64,000 nucleotides of DNA, taken from assembly GCA_964612675.1 (NCBI GenBank), contig CAZTDD010000004.1, positions 38,386-102,385 on the forward strand. Direction: 5' to 3'. Shown here piece after piece: positions 10,808-58,939 of the stretch. Below the pieces are notes generated by a model that was not told the origin of the DNA, did not search any database, and saw only the letters and a list, made by a program, of their open reading frames with translations. This DNA comes from an uncultured bacterium. Lineage in GTDB: Bacteria > Hinthialibacterota > Hinthialibacteria > Hinthialibacterales > JAKPRU01. The first letter of the stretch is position 1, and every line of letters begins with the position of its first letter. The translations under genes and the position numbers were made by a program.

Positions 10808-10940
10808 CAATGTCACGAAGCCGAGTCATCCGCGAGAGAATGCCGGGAGCGCGAGTCTCCCGACGAACCGAAGAGAACAGAAAGACTCGGCTCAGCAGGA
10901 GCTTCGCCCTCCCACGACCAGCCCACGTCAGCCTAACGTG
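10808..10940. repeat. Degenerate copy of hairpin repeat family 2
   Basis: The right arm cggctcagcaggagcttcgccctccc (10888-10913) is a perfect family-2 arm. The left arm cgggagcgcgagtctcccgacgaaccg (10844-10870) is degenerate. The flank caatgtcacgaag is related to the family TIR caatgtcattaagtt. Lies in the convergent gap after pdaD. Confidence 0.5.
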
Positions 10941-10964
10941 ACGGTACATGCAAATACCATTGGC

Positions 10965-12320
10965 TCATGCGTTCCGGCAGCCGGGCCGGACATACAAAGA
11001 CGAAAACTCCTCGGTAGTAAGGATGTCCCGGTCAAGCAGCTCCAAGCCTGTTTTTACCCGGACCGATTCGGCACGCGCCGCCCCAAGTTCATCCAGCTTA
11101 CGGTGGGGGCTGAACTCGTGGCGACATAGAACGGGGATCCCGTGAAGCGACAGTTCCAGGTTCCGTAGCCACTCGATCATTCTCTTCGCATTTTCCTGCA
11201 CCGTCCGTGCGTGATTGGTCAACAGCTGGTATTGCGCTGTTCCCCAGGATTCGGTGGTTCCCCAATTCCTTCCCAGCATAAACGGCGCGAGATGAAGGGC
11301 CGAAATGACCTGTTCGCTGATCGCCTGCAGACTTTCCTGCCAGCGTGTCCTACTCCCCGTCGGACCGATGTAGTCCACCTCGATATTGTCGAACGTAATG
11401 AAGTTGCTGTCGGGCTTTTTCTCTCTGAGCCGGTCTCGGATTTCGTTGAATTCTCTCGCGGTTCGTTCGTTGTACGCGGATGGCGACTCACCGGGCCGTA
11501 GAGAACCGGGAGTGTACTTCACATGAAGCGTGGGGTAGCCCGCGTTGTGTGAAGCGCGTGCAATATCGATGACCATCTGTTGTTGAATCCTGGCGATGAG
11601 AGGCACCGCCAAGAGCGGGGAGCGGCCGTACGGTGAGTCGCCTTCCGCATCGAGTCCGTAATAGAAGAATGACCCGGGATTCAGCTGAATCGTTGTTCCA
11701 TTGGGGAGAAGTTGGAAGGGCAGCAACCGGCGCTCGCGCTGCGTCCGTCGAAATCGAATCATAGCCGGATCGATGATATAAAACTTGTCGATCCGCTTGC
11801 GGTTATTCGACAGAACAACCTCCCCCGCAAAAGCCCCATAGGTGAATACGGAAAGGAAGAAGGAGCCAACAAGAGCCTGCATCCCCTGGCCTTTTACGTG
11901 TGTGAATTCGTGGATACGTTCGTCGAGATCTGCGAGGATCTGCCTGGCATGGTGGAGGTCGCTCTGGGAGCCGCCGTCGAAGTGGAGGCTTTGCGGTGTG
12001 TTACAGAGCCGAACCCACGCCCACACGCCCGCCGACACGTCCGGTATACGGTCGCGCAGATAACGCAGGACCGGATATAGGACGGAAGGATCGGGCTCCT
12101 GGACCGGTATCATTCCCGGTTCGGAGAGTGTTCCGGACGGTGGAAAAGGACTACTTGTGGCGGCGAGCGGATGCGTAGGCAACTGGTTGGGATCTGCGAC
12201 AGTGTCGAGAACACGGCTGGGTGGATGAGAATTCGACCGGCGCCGAAAGATGCGGGGTAGTGGATTCCACATGGCAGCTCCTGAGTGTAAAAAAAGCGTG
12301 ATTCCGAAGAGTCCCTTCAA
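10965..12320 (-). CDS. Hypothetical protein (451 aa), no firm family; weak portal-protein-like motifs
   Basis: Long ORF with good coding texture and a Pro-rich N-terminal region. The C-terminal blocks YYGLDAEGDSPYGRSPLLAVPLIA and SALHLAPFMLGRNWGT are reminiscent of HK97-type portal proteins, but this is a guess. No other phage genes lie nearby. Confidence 0.45.
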   Translation of the reverse strand: MKGLFGITLFLHSGAAMWNPLPRIFRRRSNSHPPSRVLDTVADPNQLPTHPLAATSSPFPPSGTLSEPGMIPVQEPDPSVLYPVLRYLRDRIPDVSAGVWAWVRLCNTPQSLHFDGGSQSDLHHARQILADLDERIHEFTHVKGQGMQALVGSFFLSVFTYGAFAGEVVLSNNRKRIDKFYIIDPAMIRFRRTQRERRLLPFQLLPNGTTIQLNPGSFFYYGLDAEGDSPYGRSPLLAVPLIARIQQQMVIDIARASHNAGYPTLHVKYTPGSLRPGESPSAYNERTAREFNEIRDRLREKKPDSNFITFDNIEVDYIGPTGSRTRWQESLQAISEQVISALHLAPFMLGRNWGTTESWGTAQYQLLTNHARTVQENAKRMIEWLRNLELSLHGIPVLCRHEFSPHRKLDELGAARAESVRVKTGLELLDRDILTTEEFSSLYVRPGCRNA

Positions 12321-12475
12321 AAATCAGCATTCATGGCGGCAAAATCGGGTATTCTGTTCTCAAAGGTCTCATTTGACAGTTGATTCTCATTGACTTAAGG
12401 TGTGCCGTGATTTTGCGTTGAAACTGAAAGGGCTATCGTCTCAGCCCAGCGTGTTCAAATCAGTGAGGAATTCCT

Positions 12476-15400
12476 GTGAACGAAAAACCATCGAAAAAAA
12501 TTTCCGTGACCCAGGCCGGACTGCTGATACTTGGGCTTTTTATCCTGGCGGCCTTTCTCAGGTTGTGCTTCCTGAGTCAGATGGCGTATCACCACGATGA
12601 GTCGCTGCACGCCTACTACTCCTACAAACTCTACGACAACACAACCGATGCATCCGGGCGTTCGGCGTATAAGTACGACCCGGTTTATCACGGACCGTTT
12701 CTGTACCACTGGGGCGCTCTGATTTTCTTTCTGTTCGGCGATTCAGACTTCACGGGACGTTTGCCTTTCGTGCTGTTCGGGCTATTGATGCTGTATCTGG
12801 TCTTGCGGTTGCGGCCGTACATCGGGACCGCCGGTGTAATTTTCACTCTTGCGGCGGTGACCGTATCCCCTGTGTTGACATATTTCGCTCGCTTCGCCAG
12901 GAACGATGTGTACGTAGCTACAGAGTCTCTGGCGATCGTCGTATTCGCTCTCGACTACTTTCGCACGAAACGGCCGGTTTATTTGATCTGGATGCTGTTC
13001 TTTTTGGGGCTTCTCTACTGCACAAAAGAGAATTCTCTAATGATGGGCTTCATTTTGTGCTCGTATGTGGTTTTGTATGGGGCCTATTATATATGGTTTC
13101 GGCCGGCAGGAACGCGAAAACATGCCATCCGCACAATTGTTTCCGATTACGCGCCATTTACGAAATCCTTGATCATCTATGGCCTCTTCTCGTTTTTCGC
13201 GTTTTTCTACTCGAAAATCATCATCTCGCAGATCGATTGGAGCGGCATTCCGGGCGATCTGGGTTTGGGAGTGATCCAAAGCCAGATGAGATCGTACCTC
13301 ACCGAGCATTCCGCTTTTACCGAGATGTGGCTCACGTTTGCCGTTGTCACAACCGCCGTTGTGTTTGGGGCCTTGTGGTATGTGCGGCGTATGGTGGAGA
13401 AGGGACGGGGCGACGCACTGGAAGGCGAAGAACGCTGGAAGGCGATCTCTCGTGAGTATTACCCGCTTGTAATGGGATGGGCGGTCGTTGTCATCCTTTA
13501 CTGTGCGCTTTTCACCACGCTGTTCTACCACCGTGAGGGCCTCAAACGGGGTCTTGTCGAGTATTACGCGTACTGGATCGGCCAACAAAGCGTTCGTCCT
13601 CGTATTCATGGGGGAGCGGCGTATTATATTCCTCGCCTTGCGCTTTATGAGATTCTTCCGATTTTGTTTGGAATCGCCGCTTATGTGTTTTACCTGGTCC
13701 GAGGAATCGGGTGGGCTTGGACCTGCGCTTTGCAGCCGGTTCTTTTGGGCGCGTTAAGAGAATTCTACTCCTACGTCGGCAACCCGGAGACATTTCGCTC
13801 GAATCTCGTTTGGCATTTCCTCGAGTTCCTCTTCTTCGTGGCGCTGGGCGGACTGATTTTTGCGGCGTTCAAGATTTACGAATTGGTGTTAAAGAAACCG
13901 CCTGAAGAAGAAGTGCCGGTATCGAGAGAGAGCCCGCCGGGCGACGTGAACGGGTTCCGAATGTTCCTTATTTATTGGAGCTTGAGCGCCCTGATCATCT
14001 ACAGCATACTGAACGAGAAAGTTCCATGGCTGCTGACCCACCAGGCGCTGCCGCTCTGTCTTTTGGCGGGAACTTTTGCAGGAGATTTGTGGAACAGGCT
14101 GGGACGCGGTACGGCAAGAACAGCTGTTGCGGTAGCATTCTGCGTTCTCGCGGTTTATGGGCTTCGCAGCAACGTTCTCCTCAATTTCTACAATCCCGAC
14201 GATCCTCGCGAGTTAATGGTTTATACGCAGAGTACAGAGGAGGTCGTTCAAGTTCGCGACGAGGTACTGAACGTTGCGTATCTCCTCGGAGAAAAGAAAT
14301 ATCTTCTGCGTCGCGATGAAGAACGGGATCGGTACCAAACACAGCGCGCAGAAACTCTTGTGGCAATGCAGGGGCATACTCAATGGCCGTATGTTTGGTA
14401 TTTCAGGAAGTACCGGTCTCATCCCGGAATGCCCTATAAACCGCTACCCCCCGTTGTTATCGCCGATCCGGAAATGGATTCGCAAATGGAGAGCCTGGCG
14501 GGTGGGAAATACTCCGTCCGTCGTTATCCGTTGCGGGCGTGGTGGCCGCCGTGGGCGAAGACGTTGTGGCCGTTCGACGCGGTCGACGATCCGGACCAGA
14601 CACAAATCAACGATACCGCAGAGGCCTGGGAAGCGCTTTGGGACTATGTTTGGAATCGCAAGGTCTGGAGTCCGCCCGGCTCGTCCGACATGCTGCTCTA
14701 TGTGCGAAAAGACCTCTTCCGGATGGTTCCGGCTCCGGAGGTGGACGAGGGATACGATAGTACTCCGAAAGCGATTCAACCTGTGCGTGTCTGGGGCACG
14801 ACCGGAAGCGCTCCCGGACAGTTCCAGGGTCCGAAAGGCATTGCGGTCTCACCGGACGGGCAGCGGATTTACGTTTTGGACAGCGGTAACGCTCGGATTC
14901 AGGTATTCGATCCAAACGGAACATTCCAGGCTCAGTTCGGCGGACCGGGAGACGGTCCCGGCCAGTTCAATCCGGGGTTCGGCGGTCCATGCGGCGGGAT
15001 CGATGTAAGTCCGAACGGTACGATCTATGCCACCGACACATGGGGCGCGGGCGGACGAGGTCGGGTTCTCGTTTTCGATGCGGCAGGGAACCCCGTCAAT
15101 TCCTGGTCGGAGGCGGAACCGGGCGGAGGATTCTTCGGGCCTCGGGGAATAGCAGTCGCCCCGGACGGCCGGGTGTTCGTGTCCGATACCGGGCATAAAC
15201 GGTTGGTTGTTTTCACGGCCGACGGCCGGTTCATGAACACAATCGGAGGCGAAGGAGCCGGTCCGGGACAGTTTGTCGAGCCGGTCGGCTTGACCGTCAC
15301 CTCCAATAATGAAGTGTACGTAGCCGACGTCGGTAATCGACGAATACAGGTGCTTGGTACCGATGGTGGATTTCATCGGCAGTGGAATATCCTTGGCTGG

Positions 15401-15646
15401 ACCGAAGATTCACAGGGGATGATTTGGGTGGAACCCTATATTGCCGTCGGTCCCGACGGGTGGATTTACGTGAGCGACTCAAAACGGAAACTGATCCACC
15501 GTTTCAACAGAGGCGGGAAACAGGTGGTCCTCGGGAAGAGTTCGGCGGGCTTCGGTTTGCCAAAAGGGATCGCGTGCGGACCGGAAGGGTTCGTCTATGT
15601 TGTGGATCAGGAACGGTGCCAGGTACAGAAGTTCCAATTTCAGTGA
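12476..15646 (+). CDS. GT-C fold glycosyltransferase-like membrane protein (GT39/ArnT/TIGR03663-like) fused to a C-terminal NHL-repeat beta-propeller
   Basis: The 1056-aa N-terminal half has about 12 predicted TM segments. An HHDESLHAYYSYKL loop resembles the DE catalytic loop of PMT/ArnT-type GT-C enzymes. The C-terminal 300 aa carry six NHL-type repeats (e.g. YVLDSGNARIQVFDPNGTF, FVSDTGHKRLVVFTADGRF, YVADVGNRRIQVLG). Confidence 0.7.
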   Translation: MNEKPSKKISVTQAGLLILGLFILAAFLRLCFLSQMAYHHDESLHAYYSYKLYDNTTDASGRSAYKYDPVYHGPFLYHWGALIFFLFGDSDFTGRLPFVLFGLLMLYLVLRLRPYIGTAGVIFTLAAVTVSPVLTYFARFARNDVYVATESLAIVVFALDYFRTKRPVYLIWMLFFLGLLYCTKENSLMMGFILCSYVVLYGAYYIWFRPAGTRKHAIRTIVSDYAPFTKSLIIYGLFSFFAFFYSKIIISQIDWSGIPGDLGLGVIQSQMRSYLTEHSAFTEMWLTFAVVTTAVVFGALWYVRRMVEKGRGDALEGEERWKAISREYYPLVMGWAVVVILYCALFTTLFYHREGLKRGLVEYYAYWIGQQSVRPRIHGGAAYYIPRLALYEILPILFGIAAYVFYLVRGIGWAWTCALQPVLLGALREFYSYVGNPETFRSNLVWHFLEFLFFVALGGLIFAAFKIYELVLKKPPEEEVPVSRESPPGDVNGFRMFLIYWSLSALIIYSILNEKVPWLLTHQALPLCLLAGTFAGDLWNRLGRGTARTAVAVAFCVLAVYGLRSNVLLNFYNPDDPRELMVYTQSTEEVVQVRDEVLNVAYLLGEKKYLLRRDEERDRYQTQRAETLVAMQGHTQWPYVWYFRKYRSHPGMPYKPLPPVVIADPEMDSQMESLAGGKYSVRRYPLRAWWPPWAKTLWPFDAVDDPDQTQINDTAEAWEALWDYVWNRKVWSPPGSSDMLLYVRKDLFRMVPAPEVDEGYDSTPKAIQPVRVWGTTGSAPGQFQGPKGIAVSPDGQRIYVLDSGNARIQVFDPNGTFQAQFGGPGDGPGQFNPGFGGPCGGIDVSPNGTIYATDTWGAGGRGRVLVFDAAGNPVNSWSEAEPGGGFFGPRGIAVAPDGRVFVSDTGHKRLVVFTADGRFMNTIGGEGAGPGQFVEPVGLTVTSNNEVYVADVGNRRIQVLGTDGGFHRQWNILGWTEDSQGMIWVEPYIAVGPDGWIYVSDSKRKLIHRFNRGGKQVVLGKSSAGFGLPKGIACGPEGFVYVVDQERCQVQKFQFQ

Positions 15647-15713
15647 GACGAAAGACCGGGCAATATCTTGCCCAGCGGGATGGAATGCGGTAGCTTATCG
15701 ATGCCTTCAATAC

Positions 15714-15785
15714 GGCGGCGTAGCCAAGTGGTAAGGCAGAGGACTGCAAATCCTTTATTCACCGGTTCGAATCCGGTCGCCGCCT
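15714..15785 (+). tRNA. tRNA-Cys (anticodon GCA)
   Basis: 72-nt cloverleaf: acceptor GGCGGCG/CGCCGCC, D-arm GCCAAGTGGTAAGGC, anticodon stem GAGGA/TCCTT with loop CTGCAAA (GCA), T-arm ACCGG-TTCGAAT-CCGGT, discriminator T. No encoded CCA. Confidence 0.85.
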
Positions 15786-16104
15786 TTTGAATCTTGCCCC
15801 ATCGGAATAGAGTCGGAAATACGCATGCACGCGCTCGAGGCCCTTGGCGTAGTCGTAGGATCAACCAGTTGGTGGGCTACGGGCTCCTGTAAACATTGAT
15901 TCGGCACTGTAGTGTGGAACGACGCCCGTGAGCCCATCCTACAATCTGAGTCATTCCAGAGACAATGTTGATGAGTAAATGAAAGCGGTCCGCGCCGGAA
16001 CCTCTCGTTTCCGGCATCCACCATCGTGAGCGGGTAGGTTGTTGTAAGGGAAATACTCCATCGGCCGAGCCGGAAAGTTCAAACTCAAGAGAATCGTCTG
16101 AATC

Positions 16105-17340
16105 TTATGGCTGAACGACCAGCCCCCGTTCCGGGCCTTCCTGAACGACTAACGCATAGTCGAAAGCACTGTCCCCCGGCCCCTCGAACGTGTACGACCA
16201 GGTTTGTCCGCTCTTGCGGCCCCTAACAAGGAGCAGTGTGGCTCCTTCGTATTTCTGGGCGATCGAGCGGTCAAAACCGGCTCGTAACATCGCGGCTTTG
16301 TCCGGTACCATTTCGGTTCTCAAGAGATCGCGGCCCGCCCAAGGAGCGTCTTGGTCGCCAAGAAATCGCCGGTCGCGATGGAACGCAACGACTTTGGTCA
16401 ATCCCCGGACTACGAACCTATCCTCGATTGTACTGAGCGTGACCTCGGTTCCCGGCCCGAAATCCGCTGCGGCCCGGGATATCTGAACCTCGCCGGAACC
16501 CCCGGGCACCAGTGAAGGTCGCACAATATCCAGAGAATCGACCTTGACCAAATACTCAGCGCTGCACCAGCCCACTTTCATACGAGAAGACTGTACACGC
16601 CACCATTCCCCCTGCTCATTGAGGAGTATCAACACATCCCCCCGTCGCAAACGTTGAATAGACCGATGATCCGTGCGCGGACCGTCGCGCAGGTTGAGCC
16701 GGTCGACCGTGACCACCACGGGGATGTTGTCGAGCGGCTCCAGGTATTTGGTGTGAATCCATCCTTCGAGACCGTCGAAAGTCCGCGCATGAGCCCACCG
16801 ATCCACCTCATCGATTCGCACCAAGAGCGTGCCTCGGATGAGGGCGTCCAACACCTCATAATCCAGTCCCGGGCCGTCACGAAACCGAACGGCGCTGCCG
16901 GTGACACGGAATGTCCGTCCCGGCGGGAGGACAACCGGTAGCATCGGAAGTTCGGGGAAGGTCGCGGAATCGACTTCGGCATCGGACGCAGCTGTCTCGA
17001 AATCCGGTTCGAAAGAGGGCATGATCGCCGACGCATCGCCTTCAGGTTGCGGTTCCACGGAGAACCCCTGCGAAGGTATGGGTGTTGGAGTAGGAGTGGG
17101 TTCTTCTTTCTCTCCTTCGATTTCGGCAATCTGGTCCAAAGGAATCTTGAGAGTGACTCCGGCAATATCGACGACCAGGACTTCGTCCGTTCGCTCAACG
17201 ATATCCGCCGCTATTCTGTCTCCGCTTTTCAAGTGGATGACCTCCGCCGGTGTCGCTCCCGGGAAGAGAAGGAAAGACAGCAGAATCAACGAACAGCACC
17301 ATCGGATCATCGGACGAACCTCCCAGAACGATTTGACCAT
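16105..17340 (-). CDS. Secreted protein with two bacterial SH3 (SH3b) domains
   Basis: Signal-peptide-like N-terminus (CCSLILLSFLLFPGATPAEV) and a PTPTPTP linker. Two SH3_3-like segments: TGSAVRFRDGPGLDYEVLDALIRGTLLVRIDEVDRWAHARTFDGLEGWIHTKYL and LNLRDGPRTDHRSIQRLRRGDVLILLNEQGEWWRV. Confidence 0.5.
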   Translation of the reverse strand: MVKSFWEVRPMIRWCCSLILLSFLLFPGATPAEVIHLKSGDRIAADIVERTDEVLVVDIAGVTLKIPLDQIAEIEGEKEEPTPTPTPIPSQGFSVEPQPEGDASAIMPSFEPDFETAASDAEVDSATFPELPMLPVVLPPGRTFRVTGSAVRFRDGPGLDYEVLDALIRGTLLVRIDEVDRWAHARTFDGLEGWIHTKYLEPLDNIPVVVTVDRLNLRDGPRTDHRSIQRLRRGDVLILLNEQGEWWRVQSSRMKVGWCSAEYLVKVDSLDIVRPSLVPGGSGEVQISRAAADFGPGTEVTLSTIEDRFVVRGLTKVVAFHRDRRFLGDQDAPWAGRDLLRTEMVPDKAAMLRAGFDRSIAQKYEGATLLLVRGRKSGQTWSYTFEGPGDSAFDYALVVQEGPERGLVVQP

Positions 17341-17481
17341 GCAGCGGCGTCACCGGTCCTGCTAAATGCTAACACAATTGTCTCTGAACAAGGACAGGGG
17401 CTCTGTTTGAACATGCAAACGTTGTAACGAATCGAAAAGCAACGGAGAAGGCAAGAAGGAACAACCATATGATTTGCATAC

Positions 17482-25210: not shown

Positions 25211-26251
25211 TCACAGCCCTTTCAACTCCGTAATGATTCGTTCGGCTGCGAGACTGTCTTCCTGTGGACGGCTCTCCAGAGCCTTTGCGTTTATTCCCAC
25301 AGGCGCCCAAACATGAGGATCGGTCGAACGAAACACGGCGAGTGTTGGACAACCGAGAGCGGCGGCCAAATGAGTGATCCCACTATCATTCCCCACGTAC
25401 ATAGACATCTTTCGGAGTACAGCCGCGATATCCATCAGGGGGCGATTGTGAATCGATCTTGGATTCAATTCGTTGACGGCTGCGCACAGATCGATTCCCA
25501 GTCGTTCCTCCTCTGCACCGGCCAATACGGCAACTCGGATGAAACGCTCCCGCGCAAGCCCGTGAAGAACATCGGCCCAGACGGGAATCGGTAAACGCTT
25601 TTCCGCTTTGCTTGCTCCTGGATGGATGGCGATCCAGGGGGATTGTCGCTCCGGCGCTCCCAGTAGATTCTCCAGGTCCTCAGGGAGTCTCGCCGAAATC
25701 TGTAGCGAAGGTACCTTGAGCGGTCTTGCGATTCCTAACTGGTTCAACGGTTCAAACAAATGGTCGATGACGTGCTGGTCTTCGGATGGACGTGGTGAAT
25801 GGACAACAACTTGACCAGGGCAGAGGTCAGTCAGGTTTCGAGTCAGCTGTCCGTCGCGGTCTTCTCCATACCAGAGAATAAGCGCTGCGGAAGCGAAGAG
25901 GTCGCGCACCTCTGCGGAGAGCGACGGACTCGGGCCGTACAGCGTATGAATCCCAGGCAGTTCAAAACTCATTGCGCGAGAGGCAAATGAAGGACCAACA
26001 AGCAGAGAGACACGTTCGTATTGTCCGAGTATAACGATTTCGCGATGTGGAAAGTGGTTTCGGAATGCGTGGATTACCGGTGCAAGGAGAATGGTATCTC
26101 CGATTGCTCCGTTTCGAATGACGAGAATATGCCCCCGTTCTTGCATAATCCGATATCTGCCATTGAAGGTAGCAGCGGCTCCCTGAACCGGGCAGAGAAG
26201 GCTGTGGTAGGAAGAGTAACTGGTCCAGGAGTTGAACTCCTGGACCAGCAT
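25211..26251 (-). CDS. Glycosyltransferase family 9 (LPS heptosyltransferase-like)
   Basis: ILVIRNGAIGDTILLAPVI matches the GT9 N-terminal ILIIRxxxxGDxxLxxP motif. The C-terminal GNDSGITHLAAALGCPTLAVF matches GxDSGxxHLAAAxGxPxVxLF. The true start is probably the Met at 26146 (MQERGHILVIR), because the palindromic repeat at 26220-26248 lies upstream of it. Confidence 0.75.
   Translation of the reverse strand: MLVQEFNSWTSYSSYHSLLCPVQGAAATFNGRYRIMQERGHILVIRNGAIGDTILLAPVIHAFRNHFPHREIVILGQYERVSLLVGPSFASRAMSFELPGIHTLYGPSPSLSAEVRDLFASAALILWYGEDRDGQLTRNLTDLCPGQVVVHSPRPSEDQHVIDHLFEPLNQLGIARPLKVPSLQISARLPEDLENLLGAPERQSPWIAIHPGASKAEKRLPIPVWADVLHGLARERFIRVAVLAGAEEERLGIDLCAAVNELNPRSIHNRPLMDIAAVLRKMSMYVGNDSGITHLAAALGCPTLAVFRSTDPHVWAPVGINAKALESRPQEDSLAAERIITELKGL
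26220..26248. repeat. Perfect 14-bp-arm palindrome ctggtccaggagtt-g-aactcctggaccag (GGAGTTGAACTCC core family)
   Basis: Read directly. It sits between the stop of the 669-aa gene and the probable GT9 start, so it is a terminator- or operator-like hairpin. Confidence 0.6.
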
Positions 26252-34388: not shown

Positions 34389-35207
34389 TCACGGAGGTGG
34401 CATCACCTCTCCAATAGGGGCGTCGCGAGCGGGGTTGTCCGGAATCTCGAGTTCCCCTTCGATTGTCTCGCTTTCGAACGCCTCCAGGAGGACAATGGAG
34501 ACTCGCCGATTGAGTTGACGACCGTACGGCGTGTCATTTGGCGCGCGAGGGTGATTGGGACCCAGAGATTCCATGCTCAATCGATCGTGATCGATACGCA
34601 ATTCCGGGTTCGGATTCGTCTCTAGGTATTTCAATACATTGTACGCTCGCGCAGCGGCCAAATCGAAATTGTCTTTGTAAAAATGCGGTTGTCCTTCATT
34701 CCACACATTGTCCGTGTGACCCTCAATGCGAATCCGATTTGTAAAATCCGAAAGGATTTCCGCGAGCGGATCCAGCACAGCTTGGGCCGAAGCAGGGGGG
34801 ATCTCCGCACTCCCGGAGCGGAACAACACGTCATCCTGCACATCGAACCGGATACCTTCTTCGACCCCACGGATTTGGACTTGGTGGGTCTGCTCAACGG
34901 ATACCAACTTCTCCTTTGCCCGTTCCGCGATCGCTTCTTTCACCCGCTCGATAACTCGTTCATCCATCGTGGGCTCGGATTTCTGGGGCGTCATATTGAC
35001 AGGAGGAATGAACGACATATTGAACAGGTTCGGTACCCGTCCAAACGCCCCCTTGATAAACGCGATGGTCTGGACGAACTTTTTCTCCTCGATCGTCGAC
35101 ATCGCGAAGAGCAGAACGAAGAAACAGAGGAGCAGAGACATCATGTCCGAGAAGGTGCACATCCACTCGGGCGCTCCGCCGGATTGTTCTTCTTCTTTGG
35201 GTGGCAT
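34389..35207 (-). CDS. motB: Flagellar motor stator protein MotB (OmpA-like C-terminal domain), paralog 1
   Basis: GAPEWMCTFSDMMSLLLCFFVLLFAMS matches the MotB TM/plug region (..W.VTYADM.TLLLAFFV.L.A). The C-terminus has an OmpA-like peptidoglycan-binding block (RIRIEGHTDN...AAARAYNVLKYL...NRRVSIVL). Confidence 0.8.
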   Translation of the reverse strand: MPPKEEEQSGGAPEWMCTFSDMMSLLLCFFVLLFAMSTIEEKKFVQTIAFIKGAFGRVPNLFNMSFIPPVNMTPQKSEPTMDERVIERVKEAIAERAKEKLVSVEQTHQVQIRGVEEGIRFDVQDDVLFRSGSAEIPPASAQAVLDPLAEILSDFTNRIRIEGHTDNVWNEGQPHFYKDNFDLAAARAYNVLKYLETNPNPELRIDHDRLSMESLGPNHPRAPNDTPYGRQLNRRVSIVLLEAFESETIEGELEIPDNPARDAPIGEVMPPP

Positions 35208-51486: not shown

Positions 51487-51534
51487 GAAAAACAGGGTTG
51501 ACTGCCTTGAAATGAGAATAAGAAGGAATCGTCT

Positions 51535-52422: not shown

Positions 52423-52461
52423 CGCTTTTGCACCGAGACGCATATACAGGAGACGCTTACG

Positions 52462-53625: not shown

Positions 53626-54665
53626 AAGACGTCAAAATCTGGATCGGCCTGCTCATCAGCGGAGTCAGTCTGTATTTTTTCACACGGGACGTGGTTTGGT
53701 CCGAAGTTTGGCAAACCGTTCTCACGGTTTCGTGGATTCTGTTCATTCCCTCGATTTTTCTGAATTTTGTGAACATTTATCTGCGTGCCATTCGGTGGCG
53801 TTCGTTTCTCGGCAAGCCGCCGGAACCGGTGAACCGTCTGTTCGGTCTTATGTTGATTTGCTTCATGGGAAACAGCATTCTTCCCGCCCGGGCCGGCGAG
53901 CTGATCCGGGGTATTCTTCTGGCGCATAAAAGCACGCGGCGTTTTACGGAAATCCTGGCAACAGTTGTTGTCGAGCGGGTCTTTGACTTCGCAGGTATCC
54001 TTGTAGGGCTTGGGGTTGTACTGGCTTTGGCTCCGTTCCCGGTCGATCAGGAGGGTCAGCTGGCGTTTATCATCCAGACGGGCGGAAAAGCGTCGCTTTT
54101 CTTCGTGTCGGCGGTCGCGGTTGTCCTGCTTATCATGACCTATCTGCCCACGTGGAGCTATCGCGTGGTTAGCATTCTTGTCCGGCCGCTCCCGCGAGAG
54201 GTTTTGGGAAAACCCTTCCGGCAGAGAATCCTCGATATGACGGTCTCATTCGAGAAGGGGCTATCCACGTTTCGGCGTCCCGGTTCGCTTCTTTGGACCA
54301 CGTTTCTCACACTTGTCCTCTGGCTGATCCTGGCCTGGTCGGAATATGTGATGGTGCAGGCGTTCGGCCTTTCCGATACGATCCCGTTTCTTGGTGGTAT
54401 CCTGATTATGGTGGCGATCTGTTTAGCCGCAGCTGTCCCCAGCGCCCCCGGTTATGTCGGCCTTTATCAGTTGGCTGCGAAAGCCGTTCTGGTTGAATTG
54501 TACGGAGTCAAACCGGGCGTTGCGGCGGCCTTCGCCATTGTATTGTGGCTCAGTCAAATCATCCCGATTATCATCGCGGGACTGATATCGCTCAACTGGA
54601 TGAATATCGCATTCGGCGAGATGATCCATGCCAAGGAAGAAGCCTCCGTCAGCGAATCTTTGTAA
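53613..54665 (+). CDS. Lysylphosphatidylglycerol-synthase-TM-region / flippase-like (TIGR00374, UPF0104) membrane protein
   Basis: 350 aa with about 8 TM helices. YLRAIRWRSFL and ILPARAGELIRGILL are the conserved Arg-containing motifs of this family. Confidence 0.65.
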   Translation: MSILKDVKIWIGLLISGVSLYFFTRDVVWSEVWQTVLTVSWILFIPSIFLNFVNIYLRAIRWRSFLGKPPEPVNRLFGLMLICFMGNSILPARAGELIRGILLAHKSTRRFTEILATVVVERVFDFAGILVGLGVVLALAPFPVDQEGQLAFIIQTGGKASLFFVSAVAVVLLIMTYLPTWSYRVVSILVRPLPREVLGKPFRQRILDMTVSFEKGLSTFRRPGSLLWTTFLTLVLWLILAWSEYVMVQAFGLSDTIPFLGGILIMVAICLAAAVPSAPGYVGLYQLAAKAVLVELYGVKPGVAAAFAIVLWLSQIIPIIIAGLISLNWMNIAFGEMIHAKEEASVSESL

Positions 54666-55710
54666 ACCCCATTATTCCACAGATTCCCTCTCGCCTGCCG
54701 GTTCCGTCATCGCGAAGGTCCGTGAGACGATTTCCAAATACGATATGCTTGAAGGTTGTACCGGTGTGGTGGCGGCTGTCTCCGGCGGTGCGGATTCGAT
54801 TACCTTGTTACTCGCACTAAACGCACTTGCCGCCGAACACTCCCTCCATTTGCGTGTCGCACACCTGAATCACGGTTTACGCGGGGACGAGTCGGATGAA
54901 GACGAGCGATTTGTCAAACGGCTGGCGAACGAACTCGGTCTGCCGTTCCATCGCAAGCGGGTCGATGTGCGTAAACAGGCCTTCGAGCGCCGAGAAAACC
55001 TGGAGTCGGTTGCGCGGGAGGAACGGTACCGGTTCCTCACGAATCTCGCGAAACGAAACAAATGTGAAGCGGTTGCGACAGGACACACATTGGACGATCA
55101 GGCGGAGACGGTGCTGCATCACCTCGTCCGTTCAACCGGCATTGACGGGCTCACAGGAGTTGCGCCGGTCTCGGGGTACTACGGTGTCCGGGTCATTCGA
55201 CCGCTGTTAGATGTAACACGTGGCGAATTGATCCATTTCCTGCAGCAGGTTGGGTACGAGTACCGAACGGACGCGACGAACTTCGATGTTTCGCTGACCC
55301 GGAACTATATCCGTCACGAGATTGTTCCCCGGCTTGAGCACGTCAATCCGAGGGTTCGAGAAGCGTTGGGACGACTTGCGGAGATCGCGCGGGAAGAGGT
55401 GTCTGCGTGGGAACGGGAAGAGAGCGAATGGCTCAATATTCACAGTGATCATTTCGATGGAGGAATTCAAATTGATCGTGAAGCGTTCTGTGCATTGTCC
55501 AAAGCCGCCCAGCGACGGATTGTTCGGCGTCTGCTTGATGAATGTACGCCCGAGCTCCATCCGACTTTAGAGATCGTCGATTCGATTCGCGAACTGGCGG
55601 TCTCCCAGAAGGGGGGGCGAAAACGGACGCTGCGAGGGCATGCGGTGGTGACACGGCGAAAGGATCAGCTCGTGTTTTCTTCCCTAAAATCCGTTACCGA
55701 ATGTCGATAA
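54628..55710 (+). CDS. tilS: tRNA(Ile)-lysidine synthetase
   Basis: PP-loop VVAAVSGGADSITLLLAL, HLNHGLRGDESDEDERFV and ATGHTLDDQAETVL blocks. The real start is probably downstream of 54628, either ATG 54745 or an upstream non-ATG codon, because the first ~37 nt overlap the preceding gene. Confidence 0.75.
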   Translation: MPRKKPPSANLCKPHYSTDSLSPAGSVIAKVRETISKYDMLEGCTGVVAAVSGGADSITLLLALNALAAEHSLHLRVAHLNHGLRGDESDEDERFVKRLANELGLPFHRKRVDVRKQAFERRENLESVAREERYRFLTNLAKRNKCEAVATGHTLDDQAETVLHHLVRSTGIDGLTGVAPVSGYYGVRVIRPLLDVTRGELIHFLQQVGYEYRTDATNFDVSLTRNYIRHEIVPRLEHVNPRVREALGRLAEIAREEVSAWEREESEWLNIHSDHFDGGIQIDREAFCALSKAAQRRIVRRLLDECTPELHPTLEIVDSIRELAVSQKGGRKRTLRGHAVVTRRKDQLVFSSLKSVTECR

Positions 55711-55840
55711 GTGAATCCTATAGTGAAACGATACCGGGAGGGCGAAGCTCCCGCTGAGCCGCCTGTAGGAAGGGGAATCCGGCTCAGCAGGAGCTTCGCC
55801 CTCCCGCGAAAAACGAGCGTGTACTTGACTTAATGACATT
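55700..55840. repeat. Hairpin repeat family 2 copy with flanking inverted repeats
   Basis: The hairpin cgggagggcgaagctcccgctgagccg-loop-cggctcagcaggagcttcgccctcccg (55735-55806) is flanked by gaatgtcgataagtg on the left, overlapping the tilS stop, and gacttaatgacatt (55827-55840) on the right. Lies in the convergent tilS/DUF2723 gap. Confidence 0.65.
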
Positions 55841-57323
55841 AGTCCGTCACTCGCCGATAGAGCACCGCCTCGCGACTGGCGTCCGGATAATCGTAGAACA
55901 AGACCGGCTCGAAACGCTCTTTCGGCAACGAAAAGAGCTCGGGACAATCCGCGAAAAAGACGTTCAATCCGACGGGGATCTCAAGGCCGCACTCGACCAG
56001 CGGCGAAACTCCCGCTAAATACGCAGCCAACTCCTGCGGCTCCCATTCCTGCGCTGTATAAATGTGTTCCTCGGGTCGTCGGAGTTCCTTCACCCACAAG
56101 TGATACCGGAAATAATGCGCCACTTGGTAAATCTCGGTAATCAAAACACTGTCCTGCGGAACGAAACGGATAATACGTTCCGTCACACGCTGCGGGAGAA
56201 CATTCTCGCTTTGATCGACCAGTTGCCAATTCGAAACGATGAGAATCGGAAACAAAAGCAACAAAAACGCACGAGCCATACGCAACGAATATCTTTCAAC
56301 AACCACCCGCATCCCTTCCGCAATCCAAAAGACTGCCAGAAAGAAACACGGTAGAGCAAACACCTTTGCGTCATCCACACGGTACCCCGCGGCGAAAATT
56401 GCTTTCAGGATTATCGCAGGGAAGGTGAGCCAAAATAGCGGCCGGTTCCTGTTCAACAGCGACCACGCGCCTAGGATCGCGAAAATACAACCCGGCAGGA
56501 AGAATTGAAAATAAAAGAGTGACAGAAACCAGTGCGTTTGGTTGTACCAGAGTTCGCTCCAGGAAAACCCCATCATCCGACTATGGAATTTCGCACCAGA
56601 AGCGAACCGTAGAAAATCGCCGAGGGTATAGATAGGCACTTCGATATACGGACACTCGGAACGTGTGCGAATAAACAGATAGGCATATTGCGACAGCGAC
56701 AGCAGAACAAAACCGATACAGCTCAGCCAAAACATCTTCCGCCGAAACACGCGGCAATCGACTAAACAGAAGAACAGAACGAAGCCCGGCAACAGAAAAA
56801 TCGAACTTGCATGATTGCCGAACGAAACCGCGTAAAGAAAGAGAGTCGCAACCAGCCAGCGATCCTCTCGCTCTCTTTGCCAACGAACCGCGCAATAGAG
56901 AATTCCCACCAGGAACAGAACCTGAAGCGCATACACCTCGGCGACGATACACTGACTCCAGAACCGTCGGCTGAACGCAAACAAAAGAGTCGCCGCGGAG
57001 GCCACAACCGCATCCCCTGTAAGTCGGCGTAAAATAAAGAACAATACCGCCACGGCACCCGCACCGATGACCGCCGACAACAGGTTCTGGCCGTAGGCCG
57101 GTTCTTGCCAAGGCAGAAGACTCACGAGATGATTTAGCAGAAGATACTGCGGATAGCCTGTCGTGTGCGGAACACCGAGAATATGACCGAGAAAGTGAAA
57201 CTTGGCCGTATCGCCCCGGTACCCGGTACCCGGCAGAAGAGTAAACGAATAGATGACGAACGGGACCAGAAAATGGACCGCGAAGAGAAATAGATCCCGC
57301 CGGTTGTGTGTGGTGGATTTCAT
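55839..57323 (-). CDS. DUF2723 domain protein (GT-C fold, TMEM260/GT117-like putative protein O-mannosyltransferase)
   Basis: Polytopic membrane protein. HTTGYPQYLLLNH resembles the DUF2723 HPPGYPLY motif. Start chosen at Met 57323 (MKSTTHNRRDLFLFAVHFLV). The longer six-frame ORF to 57569 runs through the upstream hairpin repeat. Confidence 0.6.
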   Translation of the reverse strand: MKSTTHNRRDLFLFAVHFLVPFVIYSFTLLPGTGYRGDTAKFHFLGHILGVPHTTGYPQYLLLNHLVSLLPWQEPAYGQNLLSAVIGAGAVAVLFFILRRLTGDAVVASAATLLFAFSRRFWSQCIVAEVYALQVLFLVGILYCAVRWQREREDRWLVATLFLYAVSFGNHASSIFLLPGFVLFFCLVDCRVFRRKMFWLSCIGFVLLSLSQYAYLFIRTRSECPYIEVPIYTLGDFLRFASGAKFHSRMMGFSWSELWYNQTHWFLSLFYFQFFLPGCIFAILGAWSLLNRNRPLFWLTFPAIILKAIFAAGYRVDDAKVFALPCFFLAVFWIAEGMRVVVERYSLRMARAFLLLLFPILIVSNWQLVDQSENVLPQRVTERIIRFVPQDSVLITEIYQVAHYFRYHLWVKELRRPEEHIYTAQEWEPQELAAYLAGVSPLVECGLEIPVGLNVFFADCPELFSLPKERFEPVLFYDYPDASREAVLYRRVTD

Positions 57324-57413
57324 GGCAACACAAATGATACGCGAGTCGGGATGTTTCGAACAGATGGGAGCGGTAGTATTGAACACCATTGAGCTAGCAA
57401 CCTTTAGATTCTC

Positions 57414-57487
57414 GTCGGGAGGGCGAACCTCCGGTGAGCCGTTTGCCATTTCAGACGAGCGGCTCGGCGGGAGCCACGCCCTCCCGA
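57414..57487. repeat. Hairpin repeat family 2 copy
   Basis: gggagggcgaacctccggtgagccg-loop-cggctcggcgggagccacgccctcccg, lying in the divergent DUF2723/kinase intergenic region. Confidence 0.6.
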
Positions 57488-57670
57488 GAAAATGCCCGCA
57501 AATCGTCATTCCGAGGAGCGAAGCGACGCGGGAATCTCCCCGTTGAATCGGACAAAACGAGATGGCCACGCTTCGCTCGCCATGACGGCAACGGAGACCG
57601 CGTCTTCTTTCTTAAATCAGCGGCATCGACGGTCTGGGCTCGCGGGAAAACGCTTTTGAGAATTGATCCG

Positions 57671-58651
57671 ATGAAGATCAGCGTGATAGGAACAATCAAC
57701 TACGATCACATTTTTCTCCCCGACGAACCGGAGGAACGGACCTCATTCGGCGGGATTCTCTATAACTCGATTCGGTTGGCTGTGTTGTTCGGCGACCGCG
57801 CGGAGATCTATCCGGTGAGCCGTATCGGACGAAACCACCGCGACCCCATCGCACAAATGTTATCCGATTATCCCTCGATCCGGCTGGATGGTCTTCTGGA
57901 CAGTCCGCTCGGGACCAACGAGGCGTATCTCTACTTCACCGACAGCAAAAACCGCAGCGAACGGATTATCCTCCATGCGGAGCCCCTGGCACAGGACGAT
58001 ATCGAACCGTTCCTCGATTCGGATTTCATTCATTTCAATTTCATCTCCGGCAAGGAAGTCAATAAAGAGACTTTTCATATACTGGCCAGACAAACAGAGG
58101 CCGATCTATCAATGGATATCCACAACCTCATCGGTAATTTCGAGTTGGATGGGATTCCATCGAAACGCGTCTTCACCGATTGGCCCGAGTGGGTTGCGCC
58201 GTTGGAATTTGTACAGATGAATGAAACGGAGGCTTCTTTTCTAGTGGGCGATGAAGTTTTCACTGATGCGGAGCGCTTGATTCCAATCGGTGTGAATCTG
58301 GTTGAGGCGGGACCGCGCTCGGCGCTGATAACGCTTGGAAAGGATGGTGCGATTGTGGTGTACCGCCGGGACGATTCAACTTTCGCCGCGTACGTACCTG
58401 GGACCTCGCATCAGCCGGTCAATACAACGGGATGCGGTGATGCGTTCTCCTCCGGTTATCGATTCGCTCTATGTGAAGGGCTTGATCCGCTTCGCGCTAC
58501 ACTTTTCGCGAATACTGTTGCCGGAATGAACGCAGCGACAGAAGGGATCGGTGAGAGCAGGCCGGTGGAGGATTACTGGCGGGAGATGCGGGATGAATAT
58601 GGGGAGCTACTCGCGCGAATTGAGTCCGGCTGGTGTGGGGACGGTGTTTAG
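57671..58651 (+). CDS. PfkB family carbohydrate kinase (ribokinase-like)
   Basis: NTTGCGDAFSSG is the PfkB catalytic/anion-hole signature. Start at ATG 57671 (MKISVIGTINYDHIF); the upstream part of the six-frame ORF covers the repeat. Confidence 0.75.
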   Translation: MKISVIGTINYDHIFLPDEPEERTSFGGILYNSIRLAVLFGDRAEIYPVSRIGRNHRDPIAQMLSDYPSIRLDGLLDSPLGTNEAYLYFTDSKNRSERIILHAEPLAQDDIEPFLDSDFIHFNFISGKEVNKETFHILARQTEADLSMDIHNLIGNFELDGIPSKRVFTDWPEWVAPLEFVQMNETEASFLVGDEVFTDAERLIPIGVNLVEAGPRSALITLGKDGAIVVYRRDDSTFAAYVPGTSHQPVNTTGCGDAFSSGYRFALCEGLDPLRATLFANTVAGMNAATEGIGESRPVEDYWREMRDEYGELLARIESGWCGDGV

Positions 58652-58798
58652 ACTGAAGATTCTGAGATTTGCGATATACTTCGGATTGCGAGGGGTTGTG
58701 CACATTGGGTTGGCTTCCTGACAGCCGTCTGAGATGAACGGGGTGGCAAAAAGCCGATGAGAGTGGGAAAACAGAAATCTTCAACCCCCTCTGTATCT

Positions 58799-58939
58799 CA
58801 ATGTCATTAAGTTAGGAAAGGGCGAAGCCGTCTACTGGGAGGGCGAGGCTCCCGCCGAGCCGAAATGAAGAAAAATGCGGCTCACCAGGAGGTTCGCCCT
58901 CCCCTCGCTCCTTCTCTGAAACTTAACTTAATGACATTG
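58799..58939. repeat. Hairpin repeat family 2 copy with terminal inverted repeats caatgtcattaagtt / aacttaatgacattg
   Basis: Arms ctgggagggcgaggctcccgccgagccg (58835-58862) and cggctcaccaggaggttcgccctcccc (58878-58904), with a 15-nt A-rich loop. Perfect 15-bp TIRs at 58799-58813 and 58925-58939. Confidence 0.7.

What the first reader, a model, noticed from the sequence alone, without database searches (positions are those of the whole stretch)
10808..58939. Repeat family 2: GC-rich long hairpin (gggagggcgaagctcc..ggagcttcgccctccc) flanked by AT-rich terminal inverted repeats caatgtcattaagtt (4 copies)
- **Copies**: 10808-10940 (degenerate), 55700-55840, 57414-57487 and 58799-58939.
- **Hairpin**: each copy has 26-28-nt arms able to form a long perfect stem. 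The loops are variable and A-rich.
- **Terminal inverted repeats**: the best copies are bounded by 14-15-bp TIRs (aatgtcattaagtt / aacttaatgacatt).
- **Location**: they occupy convergent gaps but also a divergent promoter gap (57414), so they are not simply terminators.
- **Overlap with tilS**: in copy 55700 the TIR overlaps the tilS stop codon.
- **Concentration**: three copies lie within 3.3 kb, suggesting a locally active or target-biased MITE-like element.
Basis: seen in the sequence. Interest (0 to 1): 0.5.

Follow-up and report, generated by a model that had tools for sequence, protein, structure and literature searches.

The report
REP hairpin doublets inside IS4-derived MITEs
The four GC-rich hairpins are copies of a widespread palindromic repeat that elsewhere always flanks a dedicated tyrosine-transposase gene (RAYT), and in this genome two or three copies ride inside a 140-bp miniature transposon with the ends of an IS4-family insertion sequence, one of which demonstrably jumped into the overlapping ends of two genes.

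Summary
The repeat is real: 9 arm matches against 0.93 expected by chance, forming 4 hairpins. It is two nested mobile modules, not one.

**Shell.** Copies 58799-58939 and 55699-55841 are true MITEs, and 10808-10946 is a decayed one.
- Their 15-18-bp TIR (CAATGTCATTAAGTTAAG) is identical to the ends of ~1.6-kb IS4-family elements found elsewhere (435-aa DDE transposase, NF033592).
- They carry 10-bp target duplications.
- A relative with 77% identical TilS has the empty site. There tilS and the convergent glycosyltransferase gene overlap by 43 nt. Here the MITE splits them, and both genes now stop in its TIRs.

**Core.** The 68-72-nt hairpin is an inverted doublet of a 26-nt REP, i.e. REPIN-like.
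- Each arm keeps its own covarying 3-bp mini-stem.
- The doublet occurs without TIRs at 57417-57485 and in more than 120 metagenome contigs.
- It flanks both sides of all six REP-associated tyrosine transposase (RAYT) genes examined.

It is not a canonical terminator (no U-tract, no G·U strand bias) and matches no Rfam family. No RAYT or IS4 transposase lies in the window, so current activity is unknown. A REP doublet kept as the core of an IS4-type MITE appears undescribed, which makes this a new variant of known kinds.

The parts
58799..58939 (.). Intact 141-bp MITE. Layout: TIR CAATGTCATTAAGTT (58799-58813), 23-nt linker, REP doublet, 21-nt linker, TIR AACTTAATGACATTG (58925-58939).
   Evidence: The TIRs are 15/15 complementary and identical to the ends of full-length IS4-family elements.
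58789..58798 (.). Left copy of the 10-bp target-site duplication CTCTGTATCT of MITE 58799. The right copy is at 58940-58949.
   Evidence: Read directly. The same 9-10-bp TSD length is seen in MAG copies and in full-length IS elements.
58940..58949 (.). Right copy of the target-site duplication CTCTGTATCT. It abuts the small hairpin CTCCCCCAGGCTTGGGGGAG.
58837..58903 (.). REP doublet (REPIN-like hairpin), heterotypic. The left arm has mini-stem GGC/GCC, the right arm ACC/GGT, and the loop is 15 nt.
   Evidence: both arms have 0 mismatches to the widespread arm variants. The same A+B combination occurs in L038, L051, L082 and L110.
55699..55841 (.). Older 143-bp MITE inserted in the overlapping 3' ends of tilS and the PMT-like gene. 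The left TIR is GAATGTCGATAAGTG and the right TIR is GACTTAATGACATTA.
   Evidence: The relative L141 has the empty site. With 55699-55851 removed, the window aligns without gaps to L141 over 208 nt.
55689..55698 (.). Left TSD copy ATCCGTTACC. It is still coding (TilS ...S-V-T) and differs from the empty site ATCCGTCACC at one synonymous position.
55842..55859 (+). Right TSD copy GTCCGTCACT plus the relic of the original tilS end. TCC GTC ACT CGC CGA TAG reads SVTRR*, the C-terminus of the closest relative's TilS.
55735..55806 (.). REP doublet with near-perfect 27-bp arms (mini-stem AGC/GCT in both) and an 18-nt loop.
   Evidence: I6, 96% complementary.: -61 and -64 kcal/mol, z about -8.5.
57417..57485 (.). 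Solo REP doublet with no TIR and no TSD, lying in the divergent PMT-like/PfkB gap. It is inverted relative to copy 58837 (arm B then arm A), with a 1-nt deletion in one arm.
   Evidence: I10; no TIR-like sequence within 80 nt.
10808..10946 (.). Decayed composite copy between convergent PvlArgDC and Mu-portal-like genes. The left TIR is CAATGTCACGAAGCC (11/15). The right TIR at 10930-10946 is about 10/15 with a 2-nt indel. No TSD is recognisable.
   Evidence: The sequence is identical in two independent Logan assemblies.
10845..10913 (.). REP doublet of the decayed copy. The left arm has 4 mismatches yet keeps a compensated mini-stem GTC/GAC. The right arm has 0 mismatches.
54628..55710 (+). 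tilS. Its last three codons and stop (E-C-R-*) are supplied by the left TIR of the MITE.
55839..57323 (-). PMT/TMEM260-like glycosyltransferase gene. Its stop codon TAA is the last 3 nt of the right TIR (55839-55841). The relative's protein runs 7 residues longer (…VTDAQGENTS*).

Best explanation
The finding is a chimera of two kinds of non-autonomous mobile DNA.

**Shell.**
- It is a 137-143-bp MITE whose 15-18-bp terminal inverted repeats are the ends of an IS4-family insertion sequence.
- A DDE transposase supplied in trans binds these ends and cuts and pastes the element. This makes a 9-10-bp target duplication, preferentially at small palindromes.
- That is how copies 58799 and 55700 (and probably 10808) arrived.
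- Copy 55700 landed in the 43-nt overlap of two convergent genes. It shortened both slightly, gave each a new stop codon from its AT-rich TIR, and placed 143 bp between them.

**Core.**
- It is an inverted doublet of a 26-nt REP sequence, GGGAGGGCGA-RSS-TCCY-SSY-GAGCCG, where each arm is itself a small stem-loop.
- It is a REPIN-type element. Its family is spread by, and co-inherited with, a clade of REP-associated tyrosine (HUH/Y1) transposases. These are thought to act on single-stranded DNA hairpins.
- Copy 57417-57485 is such a doublet on its own.

**What is shown and what is inferred.**
- Shown: the anatomy, one insertion event, the IS4 partner family, and the RAYT association.
- Inferred: that RAYT moves the doublets; that the doublet is kept in the MITE because it helps, for example as a hinge bringing the two ends of a very short element together or as a transcription barrier; and that either enzyme is present in this genome.
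For: **MITE shell**
- TIRs and TSDs were read.
- The composite pattern (TIR, 15-45 nt, GGGAGGGCGA) occurs 16 times in one other genome, MAG CAZFER01 (GC ~43%, not the window's organism). Clean 10-bp TSDs are seen there: GGGGCAAACC, GGTCAACCCC.
- The 18-mer TIR hits 54 IMG/VR contigs. These include ~1.6-kb elements with both TIRs, 9-10-bp TSDs and a 435-aa ORF.
- That ORF scores 164 bits on NF033592, IS4 family transposase (cutoff 115). It also matches Pfam DDE_Tnp_1 and carries the Y-2-R-3-E-6-K motif.

**REP core**
Host GC ranges from 45 to 72%.
- The inner 16 bp of the arms pair 13.8/16, against 12.76±0.10 with shuffled partners.
- Within each arm, positions 11-20, 12-19 and 13-18 are Watson-Crick in 91, 94 and 87% of 252 arms. 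At least five compensated variants occur.
- All 8 arms in the window keep this mini-stem, including a GTC/GAC variant.
- A HUH…Y scan found two 192-aa ORFs next to doublets. They score 88 and 78 bits on NF047646, REP-associated tyrosine transposase (cutoff 80).
- They also match E. coli TnpA-REP, PDB 4ER8, at E=1.7e-7, with invariant HxH and Tyr.
- Four further homologs (52-62% identity, one labelled Fimbriiglobus sp.) are all flanked on both sides by the same doublet. That makes 6 of 6 loci.

**Context and architecture**
- Of 90 doublets with both neighbours called, 53 are in tandem gaps, 29 in convergent gaps and 8 in divergent gaps. Background adjacent gene pairs split 325/121/130.
- In the window copies, linker sequences are unrelated (z ≤1.8) but linker lengths are nearly constant at 22-23 and 16-21 nt, while TIRs and arms are conserved.
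Against: - No RAYT gene and no IS4 transposase gene lies in the 64-kb window or in the other loci of this organism (tblastn). The elements here may therefore be fossils.
- The REP lacks the GTAG or CGTC tag that marks the described REP super-families.
- The same REP sequence accompanies RAYTs that are only ~50-60% identical. Published REPs are largely species-specific.
- 85% of metagenome doublets have no flanking inverted repeat, and other MITEs with this TIR carry unrelated inner hairpins. The doublet is therefore not required for this MITE type in general.
- The gene-context statistics rest on a crude self-trained ORF caller.
- The two MITE copies carry different arm subtypes. This also fits repeated capture or gene conversion, rather than one conserved composite lineage.
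Confidence: 0.8

Rival explanations
1. A single MITE family. The hairpin is simply the inner sequence of the transposon and has no separate identity. TIR-less copies are decayed MITEs.
For: - Three of four window copies have the TIR / ~22 nt / hairpin / ~21 nt / TIR layout.
- All 16 copies in MAG CAZFER01 share one layout.
- TSDs and the empty site prove that the whole unit moved.
Against: - The hairpin occurs without this TIR in at least 120 metagenome contigs. None has the TIR within 80 nt.
- About 15% of them sit between other, unrelated inverted repeats.
- The hairpin flanks RAYT genes on both sides in 6 of 6 loci.
- Copy 57417-57485 has well-kept arms but no trace of TIRs.
- Other MITEs with the same TIR lack this hairpin.
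Confidence: 0.08
2. Transcription terminators or mRNA-stabilising 3' hairpins selected for their RNA structure, spreading only by descent or recombination.
For: - The stems are very stable.
- The hairpins are enriched in convergent gaps and depleted in divergent gaps relative to background.
- Published work suggests such roles for REPs (abstract of PMC2817692).
Against: - There is no T-run after the stem. T is 6% at position +1 and 18-22% at +2 to +4, and the flank is purine- and A-rich on both sides.
- G·U and C·A mismatches are equal (57 against 58) on the strand of the upstream gene, so there is no sign of selection on one RNA strand.
- The sequence is conserved far beyond what pairing needs.
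- The within-arm mini-stem is irrelevant to a long RNA hairpin.
- One copy lies in a promoter gap.
- No Rfam family matches.
- A secondary, exapted effect on transcripts is not excluded.
Confidence: 0.07
3. The composite arose repeatedly. Either RAYT-driven REP doublets insert into pre-existing IS4-type MITEs or IS ends, or the doublet is overwritten by gene conversion. On this view the core is a passenger with no role in MITE mobility.
For: - The two good copies carry different arm subtypes (AG/AG against A/B) and unrelated linkers.
- The MAG copy has yet another subtype and asymmetric linkers of 24 and 4 nt.
- Many MAG copies have lost part of the hairpin yet keep their TIRs.
Against: - The nearly constant linker lengths in the three window copies are hard to get from independent insertions.
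- No doublet-free version of this MITE was seen in the window's organism.
Confidence: 0.25

Closest known systems
REPINs / REP-RAYT systems (Pseudomonas fluorescens SBW25 REPINs, PMC3116915; RAYTs, PMC2817692; E. coli TnpA-REP, PDB 4ER8)
   Same: - It is an inverted doublet of a short palindromic REP that forms a hairpin with a poorly conserved spacer.
- It is extragenic and occurs in many copies.
- The HUH/Tyr transposase gene is flanked on both sides by the same repeat (6 of 6 loci).
- The protein passes or nearly passes NF047646 and matches 4ER8.
- Tandem half-arm arrays and clusters occur, as described for REPs.
   Different: - There is no GTAG or CGTC tag.
- The arms are 26 nt, with a 10-nt invariant head GGGAGGGCGA.
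- The same REP goes with RAYTs only ~50-60% identical and with hosts of 45-72% GC. Published REPs are reported as largely species-specific and co-evolving with their RAYT.
- Here some copies are enclosed in a DDE-type MITE.
IS4-family insertion sequences and their MITE derivatives (for example IS231 and its MIC231 derivatives; recalled from memory, not tested)
   Same: - The TIRs are identical to those of ~1.6-kb elements encoding an IS4-family DDE transposase with the YREK signature.
- TSDs are 9-10 bp.
- The ends begin with CA.
- The element is tiny and non-coding, keeping only ~17-20 nt of each IS end.
   Different: - The specific IS was not named, and plasmid matches are only to short stretches of Enterococcus IS4 transposase genes.
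- The inner part is not IS-derived sequence but a REP doublet of another mobile system.
- No transposase copy was found in this organism.
Correia/NEMIS elements of Neisseria and similar hairpin-forming MITEs (from memory)
   Same: - They are about 100-150 bp, TIR-bounded and intergenic.
- They fold into a long hairpin.
- They can supply gene ends or signals to neighbouring genes.
   Different: - Correia elements pair through their own long TIRs and make a TA duplication.
- Here the stem comes from a separate GC-rich module and the TSD is 10 bp.
REP-targeting insertion sequences (IS1397, ISKpn1 and ISPpu-type elements; from memory)
   Same: - In MAG CAZFER01 all 16 copies of this MITE sit in GTAG-type REPs, with one REP arm duplicated.
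- Window and IMG/VR insertions lie at small palindromes.
   Different: - Those IS belong to other families (IS3, IS110).
- Here the REP-like sequence is also carried inside the element.

Membership tests
MITE (non-autonomous DDE-transposon derivative) | Terminal inverted repeats | tested here: met
   Copy 58799 has 15/15 on both ends. Copy 55700 has 11/15 and 13/15. Copy 10808 is weak. Copy 57417 has none.
MITE (non-autonomous DDE-transposon derivative) | Target-site duplication of fixed length | tested here: met
   10 bp at copy 58799 (perfect) and at copy 55700 (9/10 and 8/10 to the empty site). 10 bp in MAG copies L007 and L015. 9-10 bp in full-length IS elements.
MITE (non-autonomous DDE-transposon derivative) | Small, no coding capacity, several copies | tested here: met
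   Elements are 137-143 bp. There are 3 in the window and at least 16 in MAG CAZFER01.
MITE (non-autonomous DDE-transposon derivative) | Ends shared with an autonomous IS | tested here: met
   The 18/18-nt TIR is identical to ~1.6-kb IS4-family elements L167, L179, L180, L185, L214 and L215.
MITE (non-autonomous DDE-transposon derivative) | Presence/absence at orthologous sites | tested here: met
   L141 (TilS 77% identical) has the empty site, and the alignment after excision is gapless.
MITE (non-autonomous DDE-transposon derivative) | Cognate transposase present in the same genome | not testable with these tools
   Only 64 kb of this organism is available, and there is no hit in it. Its genome is not in the species collection.
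IS4 family (for the partner IS) | DDE transposase with the Y-2-R-3-E-6-K signature that passes the family model | tested here: met
   NF033592 scores 164 bits (cutoff 115). PF01609 has E=8e-30. The motif YHLRWEIETSFRELK is present.
REP / REPIN | Two REPs in inverted orientation with a short spacer, able to form a hairpin | tested here: met
   26-nt arms with spacers of 0-28 nt (median 18), and about 113 nt in some copies.
REP / REPIN | Each REP is itself an imperfect palindrome | tested here: met
   The mini-stem 11-13/18-20 is Watson-Crick in 87-94% of arms, with variants GGC/GCC, AGC/GCT, GCG/CGC, ACC/GGT and GCC/GGC. All 8 window arms keep it.
REP / REPIN | Extragenic and abundant | tested here: inconclusive
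   All 4 window copies are intergenic. Metagenome copies lie mostly between ORFs. Copy number per genome was not measured; 4 per 64 kb is the only figure.
REP / REPIN | RAYT gene flanked by the same REPs | tested here: met
   6 of 6 distinct RAYT loci: L078, L110, L153-156, L157, L158/159 and L160-162.
REP / REPIN | Conserved GTAG (or CGTC) tetranucleotide at one end (PMC3733652) | tested here: not met
   GTAG in 2 of 251 flanks and CGTC in 1 of 251. The arm head is GGGAGGGCGA.
REP / REPIN | Cognate RAYT in the same genome as the window | not testable with these tools
   No RAYT in the window. The rest of the genome is unavailable.
RAYT (for the associated protein) | HUH motif and catalytic Tyr; passes the REP-associated tyrosine transposase model | tested here: met
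   NF047646 scores 88.1 bits (passes the cutoff of 80) and 78 bits (just below). H107, H109 and Y164 are invariant. The protein matches 4ER8.
Intrinsic (Rho-independent) terminator | GC-rich stem followed by a U-tract | tested here: not met
   The stem is present, but T is depleted 3' of it on both strands (and window flanks).
Any Rfam RNA family | Match at the gathering score | tested here: not met
   Only a tRNA in the window. In E-value mode, only sub-threshold miRNA-like noise on the hairpin.

The most novel reading that the evidence does not exclude
The REP doublet is not a passenger but a working part of the chimera.
- **Hinge role.** By extruding as a hairpin or cruciform, it acts as a hinge that lets the two ends of a 140-bp element meet in the IS4 transposase synapse. 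A straight duplex of that length would be too stiff.
- **Vehicle role.** In return, the MITE gives the REP doublet a second vehicle, independent of RAYT, for entering genomes that lack the RAYT.
- **What it would explain.** This would account for one REP sequence being shared by hosts of 45-72% GC and by RAYTs only ~50-60% identical.
- **Support so far.** Spacing and modules are conserved while linker sequence is not. Unrelated inner hairpins occur in other MITEs with this TIR.
Probability: 0.2. Interest if true: 0.65.

Novelty: new variant of a known kind. Interest (0 to 1): 0.45.

Why it matters
- It ties a GC-rich palindrome common in environmental genomes to a defined enzyme family, the RAYTs. 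That palindrome routinely breaks assemblies, as shown by contigs ending in the element, and ORFs called across it pick up peptide stretches such as GSAGASPS.
- It gives a clean, datable example of a MITE separating two overlapping convergent genes and supplying both with new stop codons.
- It shows two unrelated mobilisation systems, HUH single-strand and DDE cut-and-paste, nested in one 140-bp element.
- It raises a testable question about how REP sequences can stay identical across distant hosts.
- For annotation, ORFs that run through these hairpins, such as the GTG-started 57434-58651 ORF here, should be treated as artefacts.

Tried and rejected
- **Rfam.** Gathering mode on the whole window and E-value mode on 55500-59200 found no family.
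- **Full-text literature search.** The arm sequences and their peptide translations gave 0 relevant papers. The sample accessions also gave nothing.
- **BLAST of the MITE.** No match against PLSDB plasmids or GenBank phages.
- **Naming the IS.** Plasmid BLAST gave only short ~76% matches to Enterococcus IS4 transposase genes.
- **RNA-strand test.** G·U against C·A relative to the upstream gene was 57 against 58, which gives no support for an RNA role.
- **GTAG/CGTC tag test.** Negative.
- **Exact look-up of PfkB.** This was meant to find strains lacking copy 58799; the protein is not on record. Logan contigs of this organism break at the repeats.
- **Fifth copy at 34799.** A chance match in coding sequence.
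- **Homology between the linkers of the composite copies.** None.
- **Taxonomy of the window's organism.** The nearest TilS relatives are labelled only 'bacterium', and Pfam on ten large ORFs gave no phylum marker.
- **Clustering of three copies in 3.3 kb.** Too few events to test.
- **Same sequencing study.** Whether the window's samples (SRR7048220, SRR7048224) belong to the study named in MAG CAZFER01's title (SRP141376) was not verified.

Full report
**1. The observation**

- The four loci were read directly.
- The outer 16-mer of the arm, with up to 3 mismatches, hits 9 times against 0.93 expected. None of 100 shuffles reached 9.
- Eight hits form four inverted pairs. The ninth (34799) is a chance match in coding sequence.
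- All four pairs fold much better than shuffled sequence on either strand.
- Only 55735-55806 is a near-perfect 27-bp stem (I6). The others carry mismatches.
- TIR state by copy:
  - The TIR CAATGTCATTAAGTT is perfect at 58799-58813 and 58925-58939.
  - It is degraded at copy 55700 and weak at copy 10808.
  - It is absent at copy 57417.
  - Copy 58799 is bracketed by a perfect 10-bp direct repeat, CTCTGTATCT.
  - Copy 55700 is bracketed by ATCCGTTACC and GTCCGTCACT.

**2. The outer shell is an IS4-derived MITE**

*Copies in another genome*
- A scan of 185,579 species genomes for TIR, 15-45 nt, GGGAGGGCGA gave 16 hits.
- All 16 are in one MAG, CAZFER01. Its GC is ~43%, against 55% for the window, and the window's own copy was not returned. 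It is therefore a different organism.
- Complete copies there have 10-bp duplications (GGGGCAAACC, GGTCAACCCC).
- Many hits lie at contig ends, as expected for a repeat.

*Proof of insertion at copy 55700*
- The closest TilS relative (77% identity) lies on contig L141.
- There the sequence reads …GGGCATCCGTCACCCGCCGGTAAAGGACC… with nothing inserted.
- After removing 55699-55851 the window aligns to L141 without a gap over 208 nt.
- In L141, tilS and the convergent PMT-like gene overlap by 43 nt. In the window the MITE sits in that overlap.
- TilS now ends …SVTECR*, with E-C-R-stop encoded by the TIR. The old end, SVTRR*, survives as a relic right after the element.
- The PMT-like protein ends …YRRVTD*, using the last three bases of the other TIR. 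In the relative it ends …YRRVTDAQGENTS*.

*The autonomous partner*
- The 18-mer CAATGTCATTAAGTTAAG hits 54 IMG/VR contigs.
- These include ~1.6-kb elements with both TIRs and 9-10-bp duplications.
- Their 435-aa ORF is an IS4-family transposase:
  - NF033592 scores 164 bits against a cutoff of 115.
  - It matches Pfam DDE_Tnp_1.
  - It carries the motif YHLRWEIETSFRELK.
- Other short derivatives with the same TIR (143-215 bp) carry unrelated inner hairpins.

**3. The core is a REP doublet tied to a RAYT clade**

*Distribution and pairing*
They come from many habitats, with host GC of 45-72%.
- None has the IS4 TIR within 80 nt.
- About 15% lie between other inverted repeats, against 2% in controls.
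- The inner 16 bp of the arms pair better with their own partner than with shuffled partners (13.8 against 12.76±0.10). Several arm variants are compensated.

*Each arm is itself a small palindrome*
- Positions 11-13 pair with 18-20 around a TCCY loop in 87-94% of 252 arms.
- Variants include GGC/GCC, AGC/GCT, GCG/CGC, ACC/GGT and GCC/GGC.
- All eight arms in the window obey this, including a GTC/GAC variant in the 'degenerate' copy.
- The long hairpin does not require this constraint, but it is what defines a REP.
- Heterotypic doublets (arm A plus arm B), as in copies 58837 and 57417, recur in unrelated contigs.

*RAYT association*
- A motif scan of all fetched DNA found two 192-aa HUH/Tyr ORFs. 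Each has a doublet 13-20 nt after its stop and arm sequence at its 5' end.
- They score 88 and 78 bits on NF047646, REP-associated tyrosine transposase (cutoff 80).
- They match E. coli TnpA-REP, PDB 4ER8.
- The family has at least 1,502 members. Many are on ~1-kb contigs, and some are named RayT by JGI.
- Four further members, one from a Fimbriiglobus MAG, were all flanked on both sides by the same doublet. That makes 6 of 6 loci.
- This is the defining arrangement reported for RAYTs and REPINs (PMC2817692, PMC3116915).

**4. What it is not**

- No Rfam family matches.
- It is not a canonical terminator. T is depleted 3' of the stem, and the flanks read ttcc|stem|ggaa.
- G·U and C·A mismatches are balanced on the transcribed strand (57 against 58). 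This argues against selection on one RNA strand.
- Doublets are under-represented in divergent gaps (8 of 90 against 23% background). That is also typical of REPs. The figure rests on a crude gene caller.

**5. How the two modules relate**

- The three composite copies in the window share the same layout:
  - a 15-nt TIR;
  - a 22-23-nt linker;
  - the doublet;
  - a 16-21-nt linker;
  - a 15-nt TIR.
- Their linkers are unrelated in sequence (z ≤1.8) and their arm subtypes differ.
- The MAG copy has linkers of 24 and 4 nt.
- Two readings fit. Either one old composite lineage keeps TIRs, doublet and spacing while the linkers drift, or capture and conversion happened repeatedly.
- I favour the first for the window copies, but it is an inference.
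- Insertion sites are at small palindromes:
  - GTAG-type REP arms in the MAG (16 of 16);
  - the foot of CTCCCCCAGGCTTGGGGGAG for copy 58799;
  - GTCACCCGCCGG…CCGGCTCGCGGTGAC for copy 55700;
  - similar sites for the full-length IS elements.

**6. Limits**

- No RAYT or IS4 transposase is present in the window or in this organism's other contigs. Present-day mobility is unknown.
- The organism is an unclassified bacterium.
- No open-access paper contains these sequences. That is absence of evidence, not proof of novelty.

**7. Verdict**

- It is an IS4-type MITE shell around a RAYT-type REP doublet, plus one solo doublet.
- Both parts belong to known kinds.
- The nesting, the lack of a GTAG tag and the cross-host conservation of the REP make it a new variant of moderate interest.

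Noticed in passing
window 317-2621: Four tandem copies of a 609-bp unit (72-90% identical), probably a repetitive domain array at the window's start (D1-D3).
   Followed up: no
window 3375-3401, 3429-3455, 26220-26246, 46552-46578: A second, unrelated palindromic repeat family, CTGGCCCGGGAGTTGAACTCCTGGGCC, with 4 copies (D7, I1, I2).
   Followed up: no
window 57503-57535: Another GC-rich palindrome, cgtcattccgaggagcgaagcgacgcgggaatc, lies about 20 nt from the solo REP doublet in the divergent PMT-like/PfkB gap. From memory it resembles a different palindrome often seen in metagenomes.
   Followed up: no
window 58948-58967 and about 58998-59020: Two small G/C-run hairpins (CTCCCCCAGGCTTGGGGGAG and CCTCCCCCGAAGATCGGGGGAGG) lie just downstream of MITE 58799. 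The first abuts the target duplication, which fits insertion at palindromes.
   Followed up: partly
window 42065-42202: An 18-nt periodic repeat lies inside the FliK-like ORF 41207-43768.
   Followed up: no
window 57434-58651 (+): The longest ORF for the PfkB kinase starts with GTG inside the REP doublet and reads …GSAGATPS…. The likely true start is ATG 57671 (MKISVIG…). ORFs that run through these hairpins are artefacts.
   Followed up: partly
L004-L019 (MAG CAZFER01): All 16 MITE copies are inserted in GTAG-type REPs (…GTAGGGGCGAACC| or GGGTTGACACATAGGTCAACCCC|), with one REP arm as the duplication. Many copies have lost part of the inner hairpin, and some are interrupted by a further repeat (GTAGGATGGGTTGCG…).
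   Followed up: partly
L024 11015 onward; L066 7440-7482; L058, L100: Tandem arrays of the 17-nt outer half-arm (AGGAGCCTCGCCCTCCC) lie directly beside complete doublets, suggesting slippage or repeated partial copying.
   Followed up: no
L053, L072, L136, L066, L040, L137: The same REP doublet is enclosed by other, unrelated inverted repeats of 15-26 nt. It appears to sit inside several different MITE-like shells in other genomes.
   Followed up: partly
L142-L152 (IMG/VR contigs): Eleven predicted viral or proviral contigs carry the REP doublet. Their context was not examined.
   Followed up: no
L158, L160: Next to some RAYT genes the two inverted REP arms are separated by about 113 nt rather than about 18 nt. 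L160 also shows a regular array of arms at a ~179-nt period.
   Followed up: no
L140 4599-5181 (upstream of tilS in the same organism): A nucleotidyltransferase/HEPN gene pair (toxin-antitoxin-like) lies about 2.5 kb upstream of tilS.
   Followed up: no
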